Part shown: piece after piece, positions 1 through 14,769 of the stretch | How positions within the stretch are numbered: the first letter of the stretch is position 1 | Layout of the letters: each line of letters opens with the position of its first letter | NCBI GenBank assembly: GCA_003971905.1 | Contig: RSEE01000055.1 | Location: forward strand, 433,579 to 453,578 | Source of the DNA: Moniliella sp. 'wahieum' | Taxonomy: Eukaryota | Reading direction: 5' to 3' | DNA: 20,000 nucleotides | Translations under genes and position numbers: made by a program | Notes under the pieces: generated by a model | The model's database searches: none | Told to the model about the DNA's origin: nothing | What the model saw: the letters and a program-made list of their open reading frames with translations, nothing else

Positions 1-1238
1 GCCAGGGAAAGCCAAAGCTTCAGGTTTGTGGCCGGCTATCTGGTTGATGGGCAACTTGGGCCGCGCAGGGTACGGTGCTACCCTAGAAGGAACCTGGCCT
101 TATAGTTACGATGCGTGTGATGTGGGCACCTTGGCCAACCAAACTGACCCAGCCACCAACTTGCCTGATTCTTCAACTTGGGCAACTGCCCCTTTAACCA
201 AAAACACAGTAGCAAGTCCCTTTCCTTCCTCCCGGGACAACGCTTGTCGGCGTGCACGTGCCCAGGAGACGATCATCCCGGTCCGCAGTTCCCCAATGGC
301 TCTTACCCGGGACGCATGGCCCCAGAAATCGACCTGTTTGAGGCCCAGGTCAACCAACAGGAAGGTATGACGGTCAGTCAAAGTTGCCAATTTGCCCCGT
401 ACAAGTATGTATCCCCCCCCCCATCCCCCCTTTCACCCATGTTGGGTTGTTTCCAAATGTCCCACTATTAGGAGAAGAGAGCTGACCGATCGGGGGCTAT
501 GTGATCTTCCATCATTAATCGTTCCGCAGCGCATACTATCGTCCCACTGCCAAACCCATGTTGCTCGACAAACGTACCATTGTCAATAGCTACACGGGCG
601 AGCTTACGCAACAAAGCATGTCGGGCGTCACCCCCACCAACCAACAGGGCATGCAGTACCTCCAGGACAACTCGACGGGAATCTTTACCGAATACGCCGT
701 CGAGTACCAACCGGGTCAAGGGGGTACGTACAATGGTGGGCGAGCGGTACGCCTGCCTGGCGGTTAACTGCGGACGAGTTAGCGGCCGACCCAGTGTCGA
801 AAATTTCCTCCCGCCCCGTCCCGCCCGAACCACTGTACATTCTCGCCAACGTGGGCATCTCGCAAAACTTTGGCACTCCGTCTTGGCAGCAACTCATTTG
901 GCCTTCGGCCATGGAGTTGGATTGGATTCGTGTCTACCAGCCACAAGGTAAGACCAACGTCGGTTGCGACCCTCCGGATTACCCTACCGCAGCCTACATT
1001 GCTCGCCATCAAGAAGCCTACACCAATCCCAATTATACCCTCTGGGGAGGGGGGCTACGGCGCCGTCTGGCCCCGCAACCGTTTGAACCCAGATGGTTGT
1101 AATGCCGTTCCATCTAAAAACCCTGGAAGTCCCACCAAGCCCATGCCCAAGGCTAAAAGTTTCCCTTCCCACGCCATTGGCAACAACCAGCAACAGTGCC
1201 AGATCAATTCGTGGAATGACGGACAGCAGCAGAATTGA
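1..1238 (+). CDS. KRE6: Beta-1,6-glucan synthesis-associated GH16 protein, KRE6/SKN1 family (5' partial; intron 405-529; about 3 frameshifts)
   Basis: Stitched frames read GLWPAIWLMGNLGRAGYGATLEGTWPYSYDACDVGTLANQT...LSFLPGQRLSACTCPGDDHPGP...APEIDLFEAQ (GH16 E-I-D-x-x-E at 325-342)...PEPLYILANVG...MELDWIRVYQ...GCDPPDYPTAAYI...EAYTNPN. The intron GTATGT(405)...GCTGAC...CAG(529) restores the frame (APYN|AYY). Frameshifts lie near 172, in the G-run at 720-724 and in the G-runs at 1044-1055. Confidence 0.93.
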
Positions 1239-4949: not shown

Positions 4950-5834
4950 CTACGCACTGCCCGCGCCAGTCATCGTGGCCTGCGCAGACGACGTGGCAGC
5001 GAGCCGGTTCCGCCTCCGCTCCGCCTCGGCTCCTTCTCCACCTCACTCCTTCACCACCTTTTCAATCTCCGGCAGCTGCAGTGTCCGCATCTGCCCATGC
5101 CCCTCAAACACAGCAGCTCAATGTCTGCCCCAACACGCGTCGTCAGTATCCTCACCGCAGGGAAAAGTAGCAACGGAACCCAGGCTGCCAAACACGCAAG
5201 CAAGCAAGCAAACACGTACTCTTCGCCCCCGTCTGCACCACCTCGAGCAAGCTCTTGACCGCGAGCTTGATCGTGTCTTCCTTGTTCATCTCATCCTTGT
5301 AGTTCTTCTCGAGAAACTCGCGCACCGTCTTGGACGACCGGCCGATGGCACACGCCTTCCACGAGTAAAAGATGCCCGACGGCTCGGTCTGGTACAGCCG
5401 CGGCGTAGGGTCGTTGGGGTCAAAGCCCATGATGAGGCACGAGATCCCGTACGGCCGCACACCACCCGACTGGGTGTACTTTTGCGCCATGCCACCAATG
5501 TAGCGCGTGATGTACTCGACCGTCACGGGGTCCTCGACAGTCAGGCGGTGCGACTGGCATTCGACCCGAGCACGGTCAATCAAAATACGTGCATCGGCCT
5601 GCAGACCAGCAAAGGCAAGACACCATGGTCGTCCAGCATCGCCGTCTTGCGCACCGTACGCGGGTCCTGCAGTTGCAGCACACTCTTCTTCTCCACGCCG
5701 AGCACCACAACGTCCTTGCCCTTCACACCGAGCGCGCAGGTACCCTTGCGCACAGCCTCGTTCGCATAGTCCACCTGGAACAGATGCCCGTCGGGAGAGA
5801 AGACAGTGAGTGCACGGTCGTAGCTGCGGGACAT
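4950..5834 (-). CDS. PRE6: 20S proteasome subunit alpha-4 (PRE6/PSMA7); intron 5219-5125; frameshifted
   Basis: [51 protein letters not shown]...[20 protein letters not shown]...[13 protein letters not shown]...[16 protein letters not shown]...[15 protein letters not shown]...[25 protein letters not shown]. Intron GTACGT(5219)...CTGAC...CAG(5125); TAG at 4952-4950. Confidence 0.96.
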
Positions 5835-5864
5835 GTGGTGGTAGTGGTGGTGGTGGTGGTGGTG
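5835..5864 (-). repeat. (CAC)n microsatellite immediately upstream of the PRE6 ATG
   Basis: About 10 GTG units on the plus strand abut the start codon. Confidence 0.85.
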
Positions 5865-6208
5865 GGGCAAGGCAGCGAGCGCTTGGGCCTGGTTGCTGGT
5901 GCGACACGACGCTTGCTTGGCCCGACCAGGCGGCGCTGACGTTGCCTCGGCCCGTTCCGCCCGGGCGTTCCGCTGTGGGCGACCGTTGATTGATGAGAAT
6001 GGGTGAGGGGCGGCAACGCAGAGTACGTAAGCGTGTGCCAGTAGGGTTGGGCGAGCGGCGCGAGCTTTTTAAATGTTAACATTGAAGGACGCTTATCAAT
6101 ATCAGCCAACTGCGGGCATTCCGTATTGTTCCCATCCCAGCATCCGCCACATCGCATCGCATCCCTCGGCCCTCAGGAGCCACTCTCCGCGGCCACGCCT
6201 CTCCCGCC

Positions 6209-7811
6209 ATGTTCGCCCGCGCCGCGCCCGCCCCACCCCCTCTCCGCCCCATGGCCAGCGCACCCCCCGCCGCGCAGCGCCCATCCCCCGTTTCTCTCCG
6301 CCCCGTCTACGCCCGCAGCAGTGCGCCACCACCCTCGTCTGCTCCATCACCGCCCTGCCCCCGTTCGAGCGCCTGAGCTTGAGGAGCTGCGCGCAGCCGA
6401 CTATGCGCATGGACGCGCCCCGCCTGCCCGCTGATCAGTGCGGCCGATCGCCTGTGGGATCCTTCCTACCATGCCCAGGCACACGAGGAAGCTGGTGGGA
6501 TCATCATGTCGCCGGTTACCCTACCTGGGTACGAGCACCTGAGCTTAGAGGAATTGCGCCTGCTCGATTCCCGTTATGGATTGTGTTTTCCACCTTCCTC
6601 CTGCCCTGTACCTCCAAACGGCACAGCCGCTCACCCCGAACCGCTCACCCCGAATACCGCCCGGCCTCCTTGCCCGATGGATTGTACATGTCCATCACAG
6701 CCATGCCCCCCTACGCCAAAGCCAGCTTCGAAGAGCTCCGGGCGCAGGATTATGCTTGCATGAAAGCCCGAACAAGCTTGGTTGCGTCTCAATCGCCATC
6801 TATATCGAAATTGCCTTCGGAATCGCAATCACAACCGCAATCGGAATCGCAATCGCAATCCGAGCCGGTAGCTTCCGTACCTACTACGCCTACAACCGGC
6901 CCTGCTGTGCCCCACAATGTTGATGCCTTACGGGGACATGAACCACTGGCACCTTTGCCATCGCACTCGGTACCAGCATTGTCGCGCCCACGTTCTTCCT
7001 CTGTGGCTAACGCCAATCCTCCATGCCCCGCTCGAGAGGACAACTGCCCTTTCACCCTACCTGTTCCCCCCACCGCATCAAGCTCCTCCTCACCCCTCGA
7101 CATCGGGATCGACTATGCGCCTATTTGATCCCAACAAGGAAGTGCAATCCATGCCCAAGAGCCTTACCGCAGTCCACCCTTACCTCTGTCCCGCCCTGGA
7201 GGAGCGCCGCCACCGAGCTGGGCGCCTACACGTCCATCGAGCCGGCATCGGGATCGGGATCGGCATCCGCATCGGGTTGGGATTGGTATCCTGCCTTCGT
7301 TCCATTTTCTCTGCACCACTTGAGTTTCATCCGATGGGCTACCACGTCTCCCCTCCCCTTCGCCACCTGGCCACCTTATCCTCGGCCCAGTTGGCTGCAG
7401 TTGACGATCTGACGATCCAAAGGGACGGCTATGGCCTGATCCAGTTCCTCGAACCGGTCGATTTGACCCAGGTACCACTCTCGACCCTCTTGGGCGGCGT
7501 GGTGGTGGTGCGCAAGAAGACCGTGCTGCTGTACCCAGACGCAAAGGAAGTGGACGAATCGGCAGAGGGCGTAGTGGATGGCTGGATCGGCGTTCCACGT
7601 CCACCAGTAGGAAGGGATTGTTGCGCACAGCTTTGGTACGCTTGGAACAGTGCTGGCCTACCACCATACCGCACACTAACTGGCCCATTCGCGATACTGC
7701 CCATCCTGCCTCCCGTCGGTACGTGGCGAGCTTGCGCGCCCGCCGAAGCAACGCTTTGTCGCGTACGACGCAGACAAGGGCCGCTGGACTTTCCTCACAC
7801 ACTGGGATTGA
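6209..7811 (+). CDS. Nup98/Nup116-family-derived protein: 3-4 GLEBS motifs plus a C-terminal nucleoporin autopeptidase-like (peptidase S59) domain, with no FG repeats; frameshifted, start uncertain
   Basis: GLEBS-like motifs are SITALPPFERLS(x)EELRAADY (6343-6404), SPVTLPGYEHLSLEELRLLDS (6509-6571) and SITAMPPYAKASFEELRAQDY (6691-6753). The APD-like region at 7334-7811 reads GYHVSPPLRHLATLSSAQLAAVDDLTIQRDGYGLIQFLEPVDLT...VLLYPD...PPVG(fs)GLLRTALVRLEQCWP...(fs)FVAYDADKGRWTFLTHWD*. The putative ATG at 6209 is in GCCATG context. Confidence 0.8.
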
Positions 7812-8239
7812 GTGATGCATGATGGGAATGAGCACAGCGTGGGGGTAAGCGTGCGGTTGGTGGGATCCTTTTTCTTCTTTCTTTTGAGCCCGATTGGGTT
7901 GGAGTGTGCATGTGGATCGGAGCAAACATCTGGGAAACTGTCGCAACCAACAGATATATAGTCCGCGTAGATCTTACGCCCTTGGATGGGTCGTGAACGA
8001 TGCGTGGTGATCGACAAGTACCAAGTGCGGGCGCGTTGAAACGTTGAAGATTCAATTGAATGGCGAGGGGCGTCCACGCGTCACCTATCTTTCACGCATC
8101 ATCCGTTTCCCTGCTGCCTCCGTCGCTGTTCCGCCAGAGGGCGGAATGGGGCGTGCAGCGCACTGATGCATGATGCTGCGCCATCGCATGCCATGTCGCA
8201 GATGGCTCCCCTCAGGCCTCCCGGGCGCCACCACCACCG

Positions 8240-8300
8240 ATTGCCACCCATTGCCACCGCCATTGCCACCGCCATTGCCACCGCCATCGCCACCATTGCC
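8240..8300 (+). repeat. 12-bp tandem repeat (CATTGCCACCGC, about 4 copies) upstream of the TAF1 start
   Basis: Read directly; translates as IATA repeats. Confidence 0.8.
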
Positions 8301-8311
8301 TGTTGCGCACG

Positions 8312-11300
8312 ATGGACGAACGTGACGAGCGTGGGGCATCCGACATGCTCGGGGCCTTGGCCTGGGCCAGGTGCTGCGTGAGCTCGGCGTCGCCGACGAG
8401 GGTCGTCCGAGGCAATGCACAAGCTCGGGCTGGCCCAGCACTCGGCTCTGCAGGCATCGACCATCTACAATGACAACTTTGAGGACGACGATGGCGGTCT
8501 TCCTGAGCCCGAGATGACCGAGGAGGAAAAAATCGCTCGCGCCCAACAGCAGGCCGAAGCTGAAAAGTATTATCGTCTTGGTGCCGCCTCGCTCCTGCCA
8601 CAACACAAGTCGGAGGAACAAATCCTCCGCGAGAAAAAGGAGAAAGCACAGCTCGTTCTTAACCAACTCAAACAATTGTTGCCTGCGTACAAACGTGATG
8701 CCGTACTTGACTTTACCGAGCTGTTTACTGCACCCCGCCCAGCCAAGAAGCGCAGGTTGGTCCCACCCAAGGGGTTTGGTGCGTATCCCCTATCTTTTGC
8801 CCTCCCCTCGCCCCCCTTCCCCACCCCCCGCCACTCCCTCGTGCTAACACTAACACTCTCTTCCAGGTCTGGCTCCTCCTCCGGCTGTGCCCTTGAGCAG
8901 CGACAGGAGGTGTCGCGCTATCACCCAGATGTGACAGTGCGGCCAGTTTCAGACTTGGTGGACAAATTCAAAACGACCTCGGGCCGGCCCGCGGCCGGGT
9001 GGAGCAATTGCAGGAAGAACTGTTGGACCCTTCCTTGTCGACGGAAGGATGGAAAAGCCAAGCGTGGACTGTGGCTGAGGGCGACTTCTTCCGTAAGGCC
9101 GCCACACTCACTGACGACTTTGATTGGGACGACGCGATTCGGTGGCACGCTCAACTCAAACCCAAGGGACCCACCCAGTTTTACTTTGACCTGAACGATG
9201 ACCAGATGGTGTTTGAGGAGGTGACGCCGGATGCGTCCAGTGCCCAGGTACAGCACCTTTCTGCCCGTGCCGCACGCTCGGCAGCCAACTTGAACCCCTC
9301 AATTGTCCAGCGACCGGTTCTATGAGATCCCAAGAGAGCATCGGCAGAAGGTGCGACAGACTTTGGGTCAATTGGTTGTCCAGCACGCTCGTCCTGCTGC
9401 CCATCTTCAACTGCCGTTCTACAAGACGCGCTTGATCAAGGAAGAACTCAATTCGCTCCATCGTCCTCCCATCCAATTCCCAACCAACATTGTCATCCCG
9501 TTCAACAAGGTCCAGTCCAGTCGCAAGGACCGACACAAGAAAGCTAAGGGAAAAGATGCGTTTGACGTGTTCCACTCGACCAGCGATTTGAGTCTGAAGG
9601 ATACAAGCTCGTTTGTTGTACGAGTACTCAGAGGAACACCCGCCCGTACTGTCCAACTATGGTATGGGCCACATTCTCGTCAACTACTTCCGTAAGAAGA
9701 GTGCCAAGGAAGAAACCATCCCGCGTGCCGACTTGGGCGAGACATTTGTGTTGGAACCACAGGACGAATCGCCGTTTATGGGATTTGGTCAGTGGAGCCA
9801 GGACAGATGCAGCCAACACTGTACAATAATATGATCCGAGCCCCACTCTTCCCCCACAAACCCCAACCCACTGATTTTCTCTTGATCCGCAACACTAACA
9901 AGGACCAAGTCACCTACCATCTCCGCAACATTCAACACGCCTTTGTTGTCGGCCAACAGTTCCCCATTGTCCAGATCCCCGGACCACATGCACGCTTGGC
10001 CACCAACTTGATCAAAACTCGCCTCCACATGATTGCCCACAAACTCATCCAGCGCAGCAAGGGTCATCGGATCAAGATGCATCGCGTCATGCGCTACTTT
10101 CCCGATTACAACGAGTTGCAGATGCGCCCACGACTCAAAGAGTTTATGGAGTACAACCGCAAAGCTGGCGATCCCGATCAGGGCTTTTGGAAATTGATGC
10201 CCGGAGTGGTGGTGCCAGAGGAAGGTGCATTGTACAAGCAGCTCCCACCGGAACATATGGTCCTATGCGAGAGCATGCAAGCTGGCCAACAGCGTTTGGT
10301 CGATCTGGGTCTACTGAAATTGGGCGACGATGCGAATGAAGATGAAGATTCGGGCGAAGGGAACGAAGTGGAGCAGTCAGTGGCACCTTGGTTGTCGAGC
10401 AAAAACTTTTTGAATGGTGCATCGGGCAAGGCGATGCTGGCCCTTCATGGAGAAGGTGATCCATCCGGTCGTGGCGAGGCGTTCAGTTTCATTCGTGTCT
10501 CGATGAAGGAGATTTTCATTGCGGCGGGCGAGGATCCATTGGAAAAGCGCGCGGCAATGGAGGCTGAAGCAATGAGCAAGTCGGGTCACCGGTACAATGT
10601 CGCAGAACAACAACAAATCTATCGCTCGGAAATCAATCGTATCTGGGCGGCGCAACGGCGTGCGCTCAGCGCCCCTAAACCACCCAAAATCACACGTCGC
10701 GATTTGGTCCCCCTCCACCGTGCTGTGCGCGCATACGAACAGGAAATCCTGGCCAACCAAGAAGCAAGGGAGGACGAGGCGTTCTCGGCTCCACCTACGA
10801 ACCACGATCGGTACGAGGGTAAGATCCTTCGTATTCGTCGCTTGGTCGATGGCGAATGGCGCACCGAGTATGTACGCGACAGGTCAACGATGGAGGATTA
10901 CCTCCGCCAACGACAGACCATGTTGGATGCCCAGATGGAGACGGAACAGCTGGCTCCGACGGGCGATGCAGTGTTGGATGCTGCGCGGCAAAAACGCATT
11001 GCACAAGCTATTGCTCATCTTAAGAAATGCCAGGACCGGCGGATGCAACGGAAACAAGCCCAGGCTGCCTCGGTGGGAAAAACGTTGGAAATCAACTTAC
11101 ACAAAGCAGCTACCCAACGCACGTGTGGACGGTGCGGTCAAGTAGGCCATATGGCCACCAACACTTCCTGTCCCTTGTTCAATAAAGTCCCACCGGCTCC
11201 AGCCTCTGCTGCCGCAGCTGCCGCTGCAGCTGCAGCGACGCTAATATGTCCTTGACCAACATGCCCGTCGGACTGGGATCAGCTAACCCCTTTGCCCTGT

Positions 11301-11467
11301 CCTCCTCCACGGTTAATATTCGTGGTCCGGCAGGTTCGCCTCCAGGCTCAGCTCGTAGCCCTATCGCCCCTCTCTCGGCGGCCTCATCTCCTCCCCCTCC
11401 CCTCCCCGCTGGACCAAAGCTCAAGTTTAAGATGAAGAAGCGCCCGAGCACCCCGGCTGCAGGGTGA
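8312..11467 (+). CDS. TAF1: TFIID subunit 1 (TAF1); intron 8779-8866; multiple frameshifts
   Basis: TAF1 central-domain motifs are YFDLNDDQM, SSDRFYE...VRQTLGQLVVQHARPA..LQLPFYKT...LHRP, DLSLKD...EYSEEHPPVLSNYGMG..LVNYFRK, LYNNMIRAPLF, ESMQAGQQRLVDLG, LHGEGDPSGRGEAFSFIRVSM and YNVAEQQQIYRSEINRIW. A zinc knuckle CGRCGQVGHMATNTSC lies at 11124-11171. Intron GTGCGT...GCTAAC...CAG. The ATG at 8312 is in ACGATGG context (start inferred). Confidence 0.95.
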
Positions 11468-11470
11468 CGC

Positions 11471-11505
11471 GGATGTCGGACGTTGGACGTTGGACGTTGG
11501 ACGTT
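11471..11505. repeat. (GGACGTT)4 heptamer array in the TAF1 3' UTR
   Basis: Four perfect copies at 11478-11505 plus one variant. Confidence 0.9.
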
Positions 11506-12441
11506 GATGGGGAGCGAACGTCCTGTTCCGTTCTGTTCCGTTTGGTTCCGGTCCGTTTGGTTTCGTTCGGTGGGCTCAACGGATATGCCTACTGATCTCT
11601 GAACTTCAGAGCGGACCCGTCGGACCGCACAGTGTATTTTTTGTTTTGTTTTTATATTTGGTTTGTTTGTTCGGGTGCTCAGGTACCAGTACGAGGTAGT
11701 GCACGCAAGTACTCAGCAAGTACTCCGTAGAAAAAGACCAAAAACAGGCAGTCGCTAGGGGAGTAGAGTCGACATGGTTGGGAAGGAGACGAAGGAAGAA
11801 GGTATAGATAGAGGCGAGCGCAAAAGATAAGGCCGAGGCGCAAGGACAATGCAGCAACTATATACTAGTGGGTGTGGTCAGGGCAGAGCAAATGCAGATT
11901 CGCTCGGTTGACGGATGATGCACTGATGAAGACTCGACGCTGAGCCCGCAGGCGCTTCTCGCAGGAACAGACTTCCTATACTACATCTTAATCCGGCCGA
12001 ACCACATAGAACCGCACCAATGGGACGCGCAAGAACACGGGTTGACCGTTGAGACGAGACGCCCGGACGACGGGATTCACTCCTGCGCGGCCTGTGGTCG
12101 ATCGAAATAGACAAAAAGCGCCAGTCTGCTCCCCTTTCCCCCGGCGAGAATCCAGAACATCATGATGCTTCACCTCTGCGAGCTCGCGATCTCCTCTCCG
12201 CCCTCCTCGTCTACCCCTCGGGAGCGATGAGGCGGCCGCAGATGCTGGCGTGATAGTAGGCCGGCCTGCGCCCAGGACCGTCAGGGTGCCTGTACCTGGC
12301 TTGCATGGAGCTGCGGAAGAAGAACCCGGACTTGGGGAAGACTCAGTCCAGCAGAGGGGCAGGACGATTTCGCCGTGGTATATCGATGACAAAACTTTGC
12401 CCTGCGAGGATGCCCGTGGGGTTAATTGGATAAATGGGAAC

Positions 12442-12518
12442 GTTCAGTGTTCAGTGTTCAGTGTTCAGGGTCAGTATTCCGTCCGCCCCCGGCCATTGGC
12501 CATTGGCCATTGGCCATC
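12442..12518. repeat. Two adjacent heptamer arrays, (GTTCAGT)3-4 and (GGCCATT)3-4
   Basis: Read directly at 12442-12469 and 12491-12518. Confidence 0.9.
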
Positions 12519-13492
12519 ATCGACATCCCAGCAGTTCGAAGAGGAGACCGGTTGGGCTGAGTTCGCTGCTTTTGTATGGACATTTCGACGGAAGAGAGGA
12601 AGCACGAAAACAAAGGAAAACATATTACCGGCTGGGTTGCTCCTGAAAGAGGATAATGATCATTATAATCATTGGAACACGTTCTGTACGAAGCAACAGC
12701 TGCCCTTAGTACCTGCCAATGGGATGTCTATAAAATGTGTGAAGGGGATTGCTTTGGGTGCCGAGATGGTATCTATTCCTCCTATATTCATCAGGCCTCA
12801 GGCTGCATGGAATGGTGCCTTCTATACCAGAGAAGACGGAGAAGCAATCGCGCACGGTAAACGTCGCGTGATGAGGGAGAGAAACACAAAGAGGTCAAAA
12901 GCTTCGAGGAAGATCTAGAACAGAGTCATACGCACAGCCGGAGGATATGTGTGTGTGACCCGTCATATATAGACTAGCGTGTACTAGTGAAAGAAGCGTA
13001 TGGATTGAAGTTGGGTGAGTTTCAACGATCCCTACTAGTCACTAGTAAGTCACTCCGAACATATTCATAGTCTCATGGTCCTCATCGACCCCCGCTGCGC
13101 GCCCTAGGGCCACGCGAGAGCCTAACCTGAAGCGAGCCGTTCATTAGGTTCCCTCCGGCGCAACTTTTTCAGGCCACAACCGAGATAGGGCTCTAGTTTC
13201 TTTTCGACCGAATACTGAGGGTCTTGTTGATCACATTTCTATAGCGCCTGACATTTGCCCTTTGCCCCCCCAAGCAGGGCCCAGCTGCCACCGCTCCCCG
13301 TCCCTGTCGCAAGCGCTTCATCGATCATCCCAGGCATCTAACCTCACGCACCACGCTACGGCTACCACGACTGCTCTACACAACCAAGATGGGAACGGAT
13401 TGAAAAGAGAAACCCCCAACAAACAAGCTTGTTACCACTGTTGGGACAAAGTATGGAACCGAGGCAAGGACAAGGAGGCAGAGACGTAGACT

Positions 13493-14692
13493 TTACTCCG
13501 AGTCCGACTCTTCTTCGGACGAGTCATCATCGGCCTCCTCAAGCCACTGGAGGAAAGGAGCAGCCGAACGACGAACCTTCTTGGAGATATCCTTGTCAAC
13601 GTATTTTTTGCTCACATGGGTCCCCCAGTTCTTGACAAACTCATCGTCCAGCACATCGAGCTGGTACAGCATCATCAGCAGCTTCGGCACGCCAAGCGGG
13701 ACAAGCGAAGGTTGTTCAACCCCGGCCAAACGCTCCAAGCCGCCCAACAGGGACTTTTGGTGCTTCTCCGACGTGCACATCTTGGCAATCACCGGCTCGT
13801 ATTCTTCCAGCTCCTTGACGGCATCGGCCGTAAACAGGTTTTCCATCAGCACCTGCAACGTCTTGTGTTCGACGCAATCCCCAACTCTTGGGCCATCTTG
13901 TACACTTCGGGCGCAGGCGCACCACGGTGCTCGCGCAGCCATTGGCCATACTGGCCATAGGGGCTGTTGGCATCATCGCCCTCGTCGTCGTCACCAAGGA
14001 CGAGAGAGGTGGCCATGCCGCCAGCCAAGGCCTCCGTACGAGCCTTGACGGCCGCCTCGGACATATCGGTCGCCCAGCCCTTGGAAGCGGCTGCATCAGT
14101 AGCCGACGGCAAGGTAGCGGCGTCCGAAGTAATTTGCTTGGTCATCTCATCATCCGAACCAGCGGCAGGGGCGCCATCGGCGTCCTCTTCATCTCCGCCT
14201 ACATGTTGGCCAGCATCCTTGCCAGCGCCCTTGACACCCTTTTGCGCTTGGGAGGGGGGTGGTTGATAATAAAGGTGTGAGTTTGTGACGCATGTCAACC
14301 ATAGTGACAGCGCCGCAGGCCTTGCAGTTGCGACGGATCAAACCATCTTTGCCCTTGAGCACAAGGTCCGTCTCGGGATTCTTGCACTCGCCACAGAGGA
14401 CAAACTTGTCGATAAACACGTCCAGAACTTCGCGCAGACGGTCGGCCTCGTGCTTGCCATTGATAATGTAGCGCTCGTTCTTCTCGTCAAACTGGGTCTG
14501 GGCACCGAGCTCATAGCCAAAGAATTTGGTCGGGTACGACGGCGGGCGCGACAGCGCACGGCCAATGTCGACCATATTGGGGATCACCGTCTTGATGCCA
14601 TTGCCACGGCCTTCGACCTTGGTCTCGAGGAGCGGCATCTTGTAGCGGTAGAACTTGTCGTCAACATCGCGACGCACATTGACATTCACCAT
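13493..14692 (-). CDS. TIF5: Eukaryotic translation initiation factor 5 (eIF5); frameshifted near 14280 and 13870
   Basis: MVNVNVRRDVDDKFYRYKMP...EGRGNGIKTVIPNM...PTKFFGYELGAQT...FIDKFVLCGECKNPET...CKACG gives the GAP domain and zinc finger. The C-terminal W2 domain ends SKKYVDKDISKKVRRSAAPFLQWLEEADDDSSEEESDSE*. The start is in optimal CCACCATGG context. Confidence 0.97.
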
Positions 14693-14702
14693 GGTGGGCA
14701 GT

Positions 14703-14769
14703 CTGCAAGGCGCAAGAGGGGCGACGGTCAGTCAGGGGCGGGCGGCAGAAGGGGACGAGGGGTACGTAC
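14703..14769 (-). other. Spliceosomal intron in the eIF5 5' UTR
   Basis: Minus strand GTACGT(14769)...CTGACTGAC branch...TTGCAG(14703), ending 10 nt before the ATG. Confidence 0.75.

What the first reader, a model, noticed from the sequence alone, without database searches (positions are those of the whole stretch)
6209..7811. FG-less Nup98 paralog carrying a tandem array of GLEBS (Rae1/Gle2-binding) motifs
Seen: three ungapped motifs of the form S-x-x-x-(L/M)-P-x-(F/Y)-x-x-x-S-(F/L)-E-E-L-R-x-x-D at 6343, 6509 and 6691. They sit in successive frames (1->0->2->1), as single-base deletions would predict, and each is preceded by a (H/D)Px(F/Y)-like element. A Ser/Pro-rich linker and a nucleoporin APD follow, and I found no FG/GLFG repeats in any plus-strand frame. 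Established: Nup98 and yeast Nup116 carry one GLEBS within long GLFG regions; GLEBS binds the WD40 protein Rae1/Gle2, related motifs in Bub1/Mad3 bind Bub3, and the APD anchors to Nup96/Nup82. Inference: this could be a pore-docked multivalent Rae1 (or Bub3) scaffold or decoy that regulates mRNA export or mitosis without adding to the FG barrier. I do not know this architecture as a characterised protein.
Basis: partly seen in the sequence, partly recalled or inferred. Interest (0 to 1): 0.8.

Follow-up and report, generated by a model that had tools for sequence, protein, structure and literature searches.

The report
FG-less Nup98 paralogue with three GLEBS
A fungal gene related to the nuclear-pore protein Nup98 has lost the usual FG repeats and carries three copies of the Rae1/Gle2-binding motif, but its reading frame is broken in a very error-prone assembly, so it is unclear whether it is still a working gene.

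Summary
The architecture is real. On the + strand, about 6209-7811, lie three diverged GLEBS-derived units, a Ser/Pro/Gln-rich linker and a complete Nup98-type autoproteolytic domain (APD). The APD ends the protein at the position of the cleavage site. None of the reading frames used encodes an FG dipeptide, and no frame in the 20 kb is FG-rich.

"Three ungapped motifs" is only partly right. The units at 6509 and 6691 are ungapped; the unit at 6343 is cut by a frame change inside it.

The locus needs 6-7 frame changes, and introns do not explain them. The essential neighbours (proteasome PRE6, TAF1, KRE6) are broken in the same way, so most breaks are probably assembly indels. The density here is about twofold higher, and one break coincides with an exact 14-nt tandem duplication. 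A young pseudogene is therefore not excluded.

Synonymous divergence between the units is saturated while the motif residues are kept, and the APD is full-length. Both point to long purifying selection.

Only unit 3 is a strong GLEBS match; units 1 and 2 keep only the core.

I found no orthologue and no paper describing this architecture. Binding to Gle2/Rae1, expression and a canonical NUP98-96 elsewhere could not be tested.

Verdict: a new variant of a known kind, of moderate interest.

The parts
6209..6279 (+). Putative start (ATG at 6209, second ATG at 6251; frame 2) and a Pro/Ala-rich N-terminus. The start is not established, and a change to frame 1 is needed before unit 1.
   Evidence: The divergent PRE6 gene starts at 5834 on the minus strand, which leaves about 375 nt between the two genes.
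6280..6416 (+). GLEBS-derived unit 1. The N part runs in frame 1 (IPRF ... SITALPPFERLS). The frame breaks at about 6379-6381, then LEELRAADYAHGR follows in frame 0.
   Evidence: N half 3.6 bits (profile 11-45), C half 12.6 bits, i-E 3.3e-3 (profile 45-57). One search gives the codon layout; tblastn pieces from P0004 and P0006.
6458..6580 (+). GLEBS-derived unit 2 in frame 2 (DPSY ... SPVTLPGYEHLSLEELRLLD). Only the core is conserved, and DS stands where canonical motifs have DY.
   Evidence: regex; 14.2 bits, i-E 1.1e-3, profile 37-52; Pfam PF21240 11.9 bits, E 0.25.
6627..6654 (+). Exact 14-nt tandem duplication (2 x CCGCTCACCCCGAA). Its length accounts for the frame 2 -> 1 change between units 2 and 3.
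   Evidence: The HMM score cannot tell this apart from a one-base deletion further on (48.0 vs 46.6-48.0 bits).
6640..6762 (+). GLEBS-derived unit 3 in frame 1 (TAHPEY ... SITAMPPYAKASFEELRAQDY). This is the best-preserved unit.
   Evidence: 42.3 bits, i-E 1.8e-12, profile 10-54; Pfam PF21240 21.9 bits, E 1.9e-4, cut-off 27. In one search the only PDB chains at E<=10 are 5 Nup98 sequences with the motif, E 0.1-0.31.
6763..7110 (+). Ser/Pro/Gln/Thr-rich linker in frame 1, the only frame open throughout. It includes a TCGCAA microsatellite at 6817-6860.
   Evidence: The coding-potential scan is uninformative here.
7100..7330 (+). Low-complexity segment before the APD, in frame 2 and perhaps partly frame 0. 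It holds a hexamer microsatellite at 7243-7291 and a GLEBS-like stretch near 7160 that is not significant.
   Evidence: frame 0 favoured at 7210-7299; 2.2 bits, i-E 6.3; no hit at E<=10.
7319..7609 (+). APD, N-terminal part, frame 2.
   Evidence: PF04096 8.9e-16, profile 2-75; Nup116 CTD 3nf5, 4.5e-14.
7612..7743 (+). APD, middle part, frame 1 (KGLLRTALVRLEQCWP ...). The break at about 7609-7612 fits one base missing in a short run.
   Evidence: colinear tblastn pieces for 8 of the 10 queries; P0001 and P0023 gave none.
7746..7811 (+). APD, C-terminal part, frame 0 (FVAYDADKGRWTFLTHWD), followed by the stop TGA at 7809-7811. The protein ends one residue after the position of the HF|S cleavage site.
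   Evidence: PF04096 E 0.11, profile 117-139.

Best explanation
This is a stand-alone, lineage-restricted paralogue of Nup98/Nup116 in a basidiomycete of the Ustilaginomycotina type. It would encode about 530 aa, between the PRE6 proteasome gene and TAF1. It keeps two modules of the family and has lost the third.

Kept: the C-terminal APD, which in Nup98, Nup116 and Nup145N docks the protein to the pore (established for those proteins, inferred here). Also kept: the Gle2/Rae1-binding GLEBS hairpin, which has been triplicated. Lost: the FG repeats, so the protein cannot add to the permeability barrier or bind transport receptors.

The most likely working mode is a pore-anchored dock that holds up to three Gle2/Rae1 propellers per molecule. 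Unit 3 is the most convincing site and units 1 and 2 are probably weaker. Such a dock would raise or buffer the local supply of Gle2 for mRNA and pre-60S export. The protein ends at the position of the cleavage site, so like Nup116 it needs no autoproteolysis.

The 6-7 frame breaks are most likely indel errors of an unpolished assembly.

Shown here: the architecture, the family, the absence of FG, and past purifying selection. Inferred: pore docking, Gle2 binding, multivalency, and that the gene is intact in the organism.
For: - Family and domain: PF04096 8.9e-16. The read-through APD is full-length at 143.5 bits. Its best PDB match is the Nup116 CTD, 4.5e-14.
- GLEBS: unit 3 scores 42.3 bits, E 1.8e-12, against 45 canonical fungal GLEBS. 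Units 2 and 1 score 14.2 and 12.6 + 3.6 bits; all other ORF pieces score 3.0 bits or less.
- All three units keep the Glu-Glu pair. In Nup98 and Nup116 this pair makes the salt bridges needed for Rae1/Gle2 binding (PMC3783196, passages).
- Unit 3's Pfam score (21.9 bits) lies within the range of 8 canonical fungal Nup98 proteins, 15.3-29.0 bits.
- Selection: across the 21-codon cores pS is 0.60-0.79 and pN is 0.23-0.44. The units are therefore old, and the motif was kept.
- Coding potential follows the homology-defined frames.
- No FG.
- Breaks as errors: PRE6, TAF1 and KRE6 carry frame changes or in-frame stops inside conserved domains, with no room for introns. The three well-localised breaks here each fit one missing base at a short run.
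- Only 1 weak intron candidate in the gene.
Against: - Break density is about 3.8-4.4 per kb here against about 1.6-1.8 per kb in the neighbours' conserved domains. By my own Poisson arithmetic P is about 0.04-0.07. Homopolymer density is similar, so composition does not explain the excess.
- One break coincides with an exact 14-nt tandem duplication, which is unusual for a consensus error.
- The APD has the lowest profile score of the 61 sequences scored, although the other 60 trained the profile. It sits on an end branch of 0.79 against a median of 0.27.
- No orthologue was found in four searches.
- Units 1 and 2 match only the core, have shorter loops, and unit 2 lacks the DY.
- There is no expression data, no whole genome, and no binding test.
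Confidence: 0.45

Rival explanations
1. Young or decaying pseudogene. The locus was a functional FG-less, multi-GLEBS Nup98 paralogue for a long time. In this strain it is disabled by real frameshifts, including the 14-nt duplication, and assembly errors have been added on top.
For: - Breaks are about twice as dense as in the neighbours (own arithmetic).
- An exact 14-nt tandem duplication gives the 2 -> 1 frame change.
- Long branch and the lowest APD score.
- No orthologue in large protein collections.
Against: - The essential neighbours are broken too, so breaks by themselves say nothing.
- The APD is full-length at 143.5 bits, with no in-frame stop in the homology-supported frames.
- Motif residues are kept despite saturated synonymous change.
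- The excess of breaks is only marginal.
Confidence: 0.33
2. The gene is functional, but the array is not a Gle2/Rae1 dock. Either the units bind Bub3 (the Rae1 paralogue) or another WD40 protein, or only one unit is active and the others are spacers.
For: - GLEBS-type motifs in Bub1 and Mad3/BubR1 bind Bub3 (established knowledge; search listing).
- Units 1 and 2 are diverged, and unit 2 has DS in place of DY.
Against: - No Bub1/Mad3 family appeared in the Pfam scans at E<=1 or E<=10. Only Nup98_GLEBS did.
- The only PDB matches to unit 3 are Nup98 GLEBS sequences.
- Each unit aligns to canonical Nup98 GLEBS, including the upstream xPxY element.
Confidence: 0.1
3. Artefact of assembly: a collapsed or duplicated stretch, or a chimera, creates the apparent array or the FG-less form.
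For: The assembly is clearly of low base quality.
Against: - The three cores are only 48-67% identical at the DNA level, so they are not recent copies or an assembly duplication.
- The gene sits between single-copy genes, with a plausible start and stop.
- The APD is colinear with canonical APDs.
Confidence: 0.04

Closest known systems
Saccharomyces / Candida Nup116 (GLEBS + GLFG repeats + C-terminal APD-fold domain)
   Same: A GLEBS lies upstream of an APD-fold domain that ends the protein, and no Nup96 part follows. The best solved-structure match of the APD N half is the Nup116 CTD (3nf5 4.5e-14; 2aiv, 7tbi and 3pbp about 6e-11).
   Different: This gene has no GLFG/FG repeats and three GLEBS-derived units instead of one. 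The units have shorter hairpin loops than canonical GLEBS.
Canonical Nup98-96 of Ustilaginomycotina, e.g. Tilletiaria anomala KDN42866.1 (P0035, 2057 aa), Tilletia horrida (P0015) and the Malassezia obtusa cluster (P0018)
   Same: Same APD family. In the pieces shown, this gene and P0002, P0003, P0012, P0018 and P0021 carry extra residues before the GLN-type strand of the APD. The GLEBS is of the same type.
   Different: The canonical proteins have 38-62 FG, one GLEBS, an HFS cleavage site and a Nup96 half. This gene has none of the first, three of the second, HW-D-stop in place of the third, and no Nup96. Its APD lies outside the well-supported canonical clade, on a long branch.
FG-poor proteins that end in an APD, known only as database entries, e.g. 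Obelidium mucronatum KAI9339364.1 (P0147, 680 aa) and Fistulina hepatica KIY42877.1 (P0037, 388 aa)
   Same: Few or no FG, and the APD is at the very C-terminus. P0147 also has one GLEBS at its N-terminus.
   Different: They have one GLEBS or none, not an array. They are not close relatives of this gene (E 7e-5 and 8.5e-8 to the APD N part). As far as my searches show, they are uncharacterised.
Bub1 / Mad3(BubR1) GLEBS motifs that bind Bub3
   Same: A short Glu-Glu-containing motif that binds a Rae1-like WD40 propeller (established knowledge).
   Different: Different protein context (no APD), and no Pfam match of that family here.

Membership tests
Nup98/Nup116/Nup145N family (peptidase S59 / Nucleoporin2 APD) | APD fold domain detectable by the curated profile PF04096 | tested here: met
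   58.8 bits, E 8.9e-16 (cut-off 28.4) for the N half alone; the C piece gives E 0.11. The read-through with X covers profile 3-144 of 148 of my own APD profile, 143.5 bits.
Nup98/Nup116/Nup145N family (peptidase S59 / Nucleoporin2 APD) | FG/GLFG repeat region N-terminal of the APD | tested here: not met
   0 FG in the frames used. No frame of the 20-kb window exceeds 3 FG per 100 aa. Canonical relatives have 38-62 FG.
Nup98-96 / Nup145 (autoproteolytic precursors) | His-Phe-Ser cleavage site followed by a Nup96/Nup145C half | tested here: not met
   The frame ends ...TFLTHWD, then a stop at 7809-7811. No Nup96 profile match in the window's ORFs. The end resembles Nup116-type proteins (a recalled comparison).
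GLEBS (Gle2/Rae1-binding sequence of Nup98/Nup116) | Match to the curated profile PF21240 at its gathering score (27 bits) | tested here: inconclusive
   Unit 3 scores 21.9 bits, unit 2 scores 11.9 bits, and the halves of unit 1 score nothing. However, 5 of 8 canonical fungal Nup98 proteins also score below 27, with a range of 15.3-29.0.
GLEBS (Gle2/Rae1-binding sequence of Nup98/Nup116) | Full-length similarity to the ~57-aa fungal GLEBS hairpin, including the upstream NPxY-type element | tested here: met
   Met for unit 3 only: 42.3 bits, E 1.8e-12, profile 10-54 of about 57. Units 1 and 2 match the core only (12.6 + 3.6 and 14.2 bits) and have shorter loops.
GLEBS (Gle2/Rae1-binding sequence of Nup98/Nup116) | Conserved Glu-Glu pair that forms salt bridges with Rae1/Gle2 (E201/E202 in Nup98, E154/E155 in Nup116; PMC3783196, passages) | tested here: met
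   EELR is present in all three units.
GLEBS (Gle2/Rae1-binding sequence of Nup98/Nup116) | Physical binding to Gle2/Rae1 | not testable with these tools
   No Gle2/Rae1 or Bub3 sequence of this organism was available, because no genome is held. No co-fold was run.
Bub1/Mad3 Bub3-binding region | Match to a Bub1/Mad3 family profile | tested here: not met
   No such family was listed at E<=1 or E<=10 for the pieces holding the units.

The most novel reading that the evidence does not exclude
An intact, expressed, FG-free nucleoporin that docks at the pore through its APD and displays three Gle2/Rae1-binding hairpins in a row. This would be a dedicated multivalent Gle2 platform, or a buffer or decoy, separated from the permeability barrier. 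It would be a division of labour within the Nup98 family that has not been described, arising in an under-sampled Ustilaginomycotina lineage.
Probability: 0.3. Interest if true: 0.65.

Novelty: new variant of a known kind. Interest (0 to 1): 0.42.

Why it matters
In every characterised Nup98-family protein, the single GLEBS is embedded in cohesive FG repeats. That makes it hard to separate Gle2/Rae1 recruitment from barrier function. A natural protein that keeps only the pore anchor and multiplies the GLEBS would be a ready-made separation-of-function form. It would let one ask how many Gle2 sites a pore needs for mRNA and pre-60S export. It would also let one ask whether a pore-bound or soluble GLEBS array titrates Gle2. 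Overexpressed GLEBS mislocalises Rae1 and blocks poly(A)+ RNA export in HeLa cells, as summarised in PMC3783196 (passages). If the locus is a pseudogene, it is still a record of a lineage-specific experiment in Nup98 architecture, but of limited interest.

Tried and rejected
- Introns as the cause of the frame changes. A scan for GT..branch..AG introns of about 44-300 nt found 1 weak candidate (6321-6478), and it would remove unit 1. At three breaks homologous residues abut directly. Rejected.
- A fourth GLEBS unit near 7160. It scores 2.2 bits, i-E 6.3, with the canonical profile. It gives no hit at E<=10 with a profile of the three in-window cores. Rejected as not significant.
- GC3 frame tracking was uninformative.
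- Orthologue searches:
  - The search for homologous proteins with the APD N part, longer proteins: 2312 candidates, none at E<=1e-3.
  - The same tool with unit 3 plus linker, proteins of 193-615 aa: 1338 candidates, none at E<=0.01.
  - phmmer over 1.84 billion representatives: 219 hits, the best at 38-44% identity, all ordinary Nup98-family proteins or fragments.
  - Metagenome scan: 13 loci. Twelve match only 19-21 residues and one matches about 50 residues at 30%; none is a relative.
  - ESM Atlas: best score 0.77, not meaningful.
So there was no read-level check of the indels and no expression evidence either way.
- No whole genome is held, so a canonical NUP98-96, GLE2 and BUB3 could not be looked for.
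- Earlier notes of this scan: nothing.
- Placing the APD on a tree was unresolved.
- Telling the 14-nt duplication from a one-base deletion by HMM score: scores were equal.
- Minus-strand ORFs over the locus have no Pfam family.
- No co-fold was attempted, because no partner sequence was available.

Full report
CONTEXT. The window is eukaryotic DNA of 57% G+C. The genes around the finding are:
- a KRE6/SKN1 glucan-synthesis gene (1-1100, +);
- the proteasome alpha-4 gene PRE6 (4956-5834, minus strand);
- TAF1 (about 8400-12900, +);
- eIF5 (13496-14731, minus strand).

The PRE6 product is most like that of Tilletiaria anomala, at 84-92% identity. Many other fungi follow at 76-85%. The source is therefore a basidiomycete of the Ustilaginomycotina type with no closely sampled relative. 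No whole genome is held for it.

THE OBSERVATION. The first motif is not ungapped. SITALPPFERLS is read in frame 1 and LEELRAADYAHGR follows in frame 0. One base is missing at the codon between them.

I built a profile from the GLEBS regions of 45 canonical fungal Nup98 proteins found here and searched the window with it:
- unit 3: 42.3 bits, i-E 1.8e-12, covering profile 10-54, including the upstream NPxY-type element;
- unit 2: 14.2 bits, i-E 1.1e-3, core only;
- unit 1: 12.6 bits for the C half and 3.6 bits for the N half;
- every other ORF piece: 3.0 bits or less. 617 pieces were searched (count).

Each core is preceded in frame by an xPx(F/Y) element: IPRF, DPSY, HPEY. The loops are 11-16 residues long, against about 22 in canonical proteins.

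Pfam's Nup98_GLEBS profile gives 21.9 bits for unit 3 and 11.9 bits for unit 2. Both are under the cut-off of 27. However, 5 of 8 canonical fungal Nup98-family proteins also fall under it, with a range of 15.3-29.0 bits. Failing that cut-off therefore does not disqualify unit 3.

Unit 3's only PDB sequence matches at E<=10 are 5 Nup98 GLEBS-bearing sequences. These matches are weak (E 0.1-0.31).

A fourth GLEBS-like stretch near 7160 is not significant.

THE APD. The N part (7319-7609, frame 2) matches Pfam Nucleoporin2 at 8.9e-16. Among solved structures it is closest to the Nup116 C-terminal domain: 3nf5 at 4.5e-14, ahead of Nup145N and Nup98.

The middle part (7612-7743, frame 1) and the C part (7746-7808, frame 0) are colinear with canonical APDs in tblastn. 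The middle part is aligned by 8 of the 10 canonical queries and the C part by 6.

Read through with X at the two breaks, the domain matches a profile of 60 APDs end to end (positions 3-144 of 148) with 143.5 bits. That is the lowest of the 61 sequences scored, but the other 60 trained the profile.

The frame ends ...TFLTHWD, then a stop. The protein therefore stops one residue after the position of the His-Phe|Ser cleavage site and has no Nup96 half.

On a tree of 61 APDs the window's domain has an end branch of 0.79 against a median of 0.27. It lies outside the supported clade (SH-aLRT 95) that holds the canonical Ustilaginomycotina proteins: Tilletiaria, Tilletia, and the representatives of the clusters holding Tilletiopsis and Malassezia proteins. 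Its position is otherwise unresolved.

NO FG. The frames used contain no FG dipeptide. No frame anywhere in the 20 kb has more than 3 FG per 100 residues. The divergent PRE6 start at 5834 and TAF1 downstream leave no room for FG exons nearby.

THE BROKEN FRAME. Going by homology, the frame runs 2 (start) -> 1 -> 0 -> 2 -> 1 -> 2 -> 1 -> 0. That is six certain changes plus one near the start.

Introns do not explain them. A consensus scan finds one weak candidate, and it would delete unit 1. At three breaks homologous residues abut directly. Those three fit one base missing at a short run.

The neighbours are broken in the same way:
- PRE6 changes frame at residues 72-75 with overlapping alignments, and has a stop inside its conserved last exon.
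- The KRE6 domain is read in frames 2, 1, 0, 2 with contiguous or overlapping profile positions.
- The TAF1 DUF3591 domain is read in frames 0, 1, 0.

These are essential, conserved genes, so the assembly itself carries indel errors. That amounts to about 6-7 breaks in 3.8 kb of conserved domains.

The locus has 6-7 breaks in 1.6 kb, roughly twice the density. By my own Poisson arithmetic P is about 0.04-0.07. Homopolymer density is similar.

One break (frame 2 -> 1 between units 2 and 3) coincides with an exact 14-nt tandem duplication at 6627-6654, whose length gives exactly that shift. A one-base deletion just downstream would explain it equally well by HMM score: 48.0 against 46.6-48.0 bits.

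The breaks therefore do not decide between an intact gene in a poor assembly and a young pseudogene. The mild excess and the duplication lean a little towards the pseudogene.

SELECTION. The three 21-codon cores are only 48-67% identical in DNA. The proportion of synonymous differences is 0.60-0.79, which is saturated. The proportion of non-synonymous differences is 0.23-0.44.

The triplication is therefore old, and the motif, including the Glu-Glu pair, was kept by selection. Together with the full-length APD and the coding-potential signal in the homology-defined frames, this shows the architecture was a working protein for a long time. It also rules out an assembly duplication.

RELATIVES AND LITERATURE. 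phmmer of the APD N part against 1.84 billion representatives gave 219 hits at E<=1e-3. The best reached only 38-44% identity, and all were ordinary Nup98-family proteins or fragments.

Of the 150 listed, none has two motif cores by a strict pattern. One has two by a loose pattern, and its second is clearly not a GLEBS.

Searches for orthologues of unit 3 plus linker found nothing, nor did a metagenome scan or the ESM Atlas.

FG-poor proteins that end in an APD do exist in databases. A chytrid protein (Obelidium mucronatum, 680 aa) has one N-terminal GLEBS, 2 FG and a terminal APD. A Fistulina hepatica protein of 388 aa has an APD and no GLEBS. The loss of FG is therefore not unique; the GLEBS array is what stands out.

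Four full-text searches found no paper on multiple or tandem GLEBS or on such a paralogue. For these I saw only listings and the start of abstracts.

From PMC3783196 I read passages. They state that:
- the GLEBS is a 57-residue hairpin that tethers Gle2/Rae1 to the pore without FG contacts;
- two conserved glutamates make the critical salt bridges;
- anchoring to the Nup116 GLEBS is needed for Gle2 to join pre-60S particles;
- overexpressed GLEBS mislocalises Rae1 and blocks poly(A)+ RNA export in HeLa cells.

MECHANISM AND VERDICT. The best reading (0.45) is a lineage-restricted Nup98/Nup116 paralogue. It would dock at the pore by its APD and display up to three Gle2/Rae1-binding hairpins without contributing FG repeats. 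Its frame in this record is broken mainly by assembly errors.

The main rival (0.33) is that the present copy is a young pseudogene of such a gene.

Binding to Bub3 or activity of only one unit (0.10) and an assembly artefact (0.04) are less likely.

Docking, binding, valency and expression are inferred, not shown.

The finding is a new variant of a known kind. It is interesting if the gene proves intact, and modest otherwise.

Noticed in passing
window 157-196, 713-722 (KRE6); 5610-5622 and 4956-5114 (PRE6, minus strand); 9613-9620 and 9783-9807 (TAF1): Essential, conserved neighbour genes carry frame changes or an in-frame stop inside Pfam domains, with no room for introns. The assembly has roughly 1.6-1.8 such breaks per kb of conserved coding sequence, so any gene call in this record needs polishing first.
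   Followed up: partly
window 6627-6654: An exact 14-nt tandem duplication (2 x CCGCTCACCCCGAA) lies between GLEBS units 2 and 3. Both copies encode AHPE in their respective frames. Whether it is a real slippage mutation or an assembly artefact is open.
   Followed up: partly
window 6817-6860 and 7243-7291: Hexamer microsatellites lie inside the linker and just before the APD: TCGCAA x7.3, and CGGCAT/GGGATC-like x5.5. These are likely hot spots for length errors or real length variation.
   Followed up: no
window 7100-7215: A stretch in frame 2 (SLTAVHPY...ALEERR) looks like a decayed fourth GLEBS core. It is not significant: 2.2 bits with the canonical profile and no hit with a profile of the three in-window cores.
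   Followed up: yes
window 5836-5866 and 8230-8300: Triplet and dodecamer repeats. A GGT run lies just upstream of the PRE6 start and reads as a His run on the minus strand. A repeated CCATTGCCACCG-like unit lies upstream of TAF1.
   Followed up: no
P0019 (583 aa, unnamed Logan protein): This protein carries two APD copies in tandem, each ending in a VEHF/IEHF-type site. That is another unusual Nup98-family architecture.
   Followed up: no
P0147 (Obelidium mucronatum KAI9339364.1), P0037 (Fistulina hepatica KIY42877.1), P0023, P0029: These are short, FG-poor proteins that end exactly at the APD; P0147 also has one N-terminal GLEBS. FG-less Nup98 paralogues may be more widespread than the literature suggests.
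   Followed up: partly
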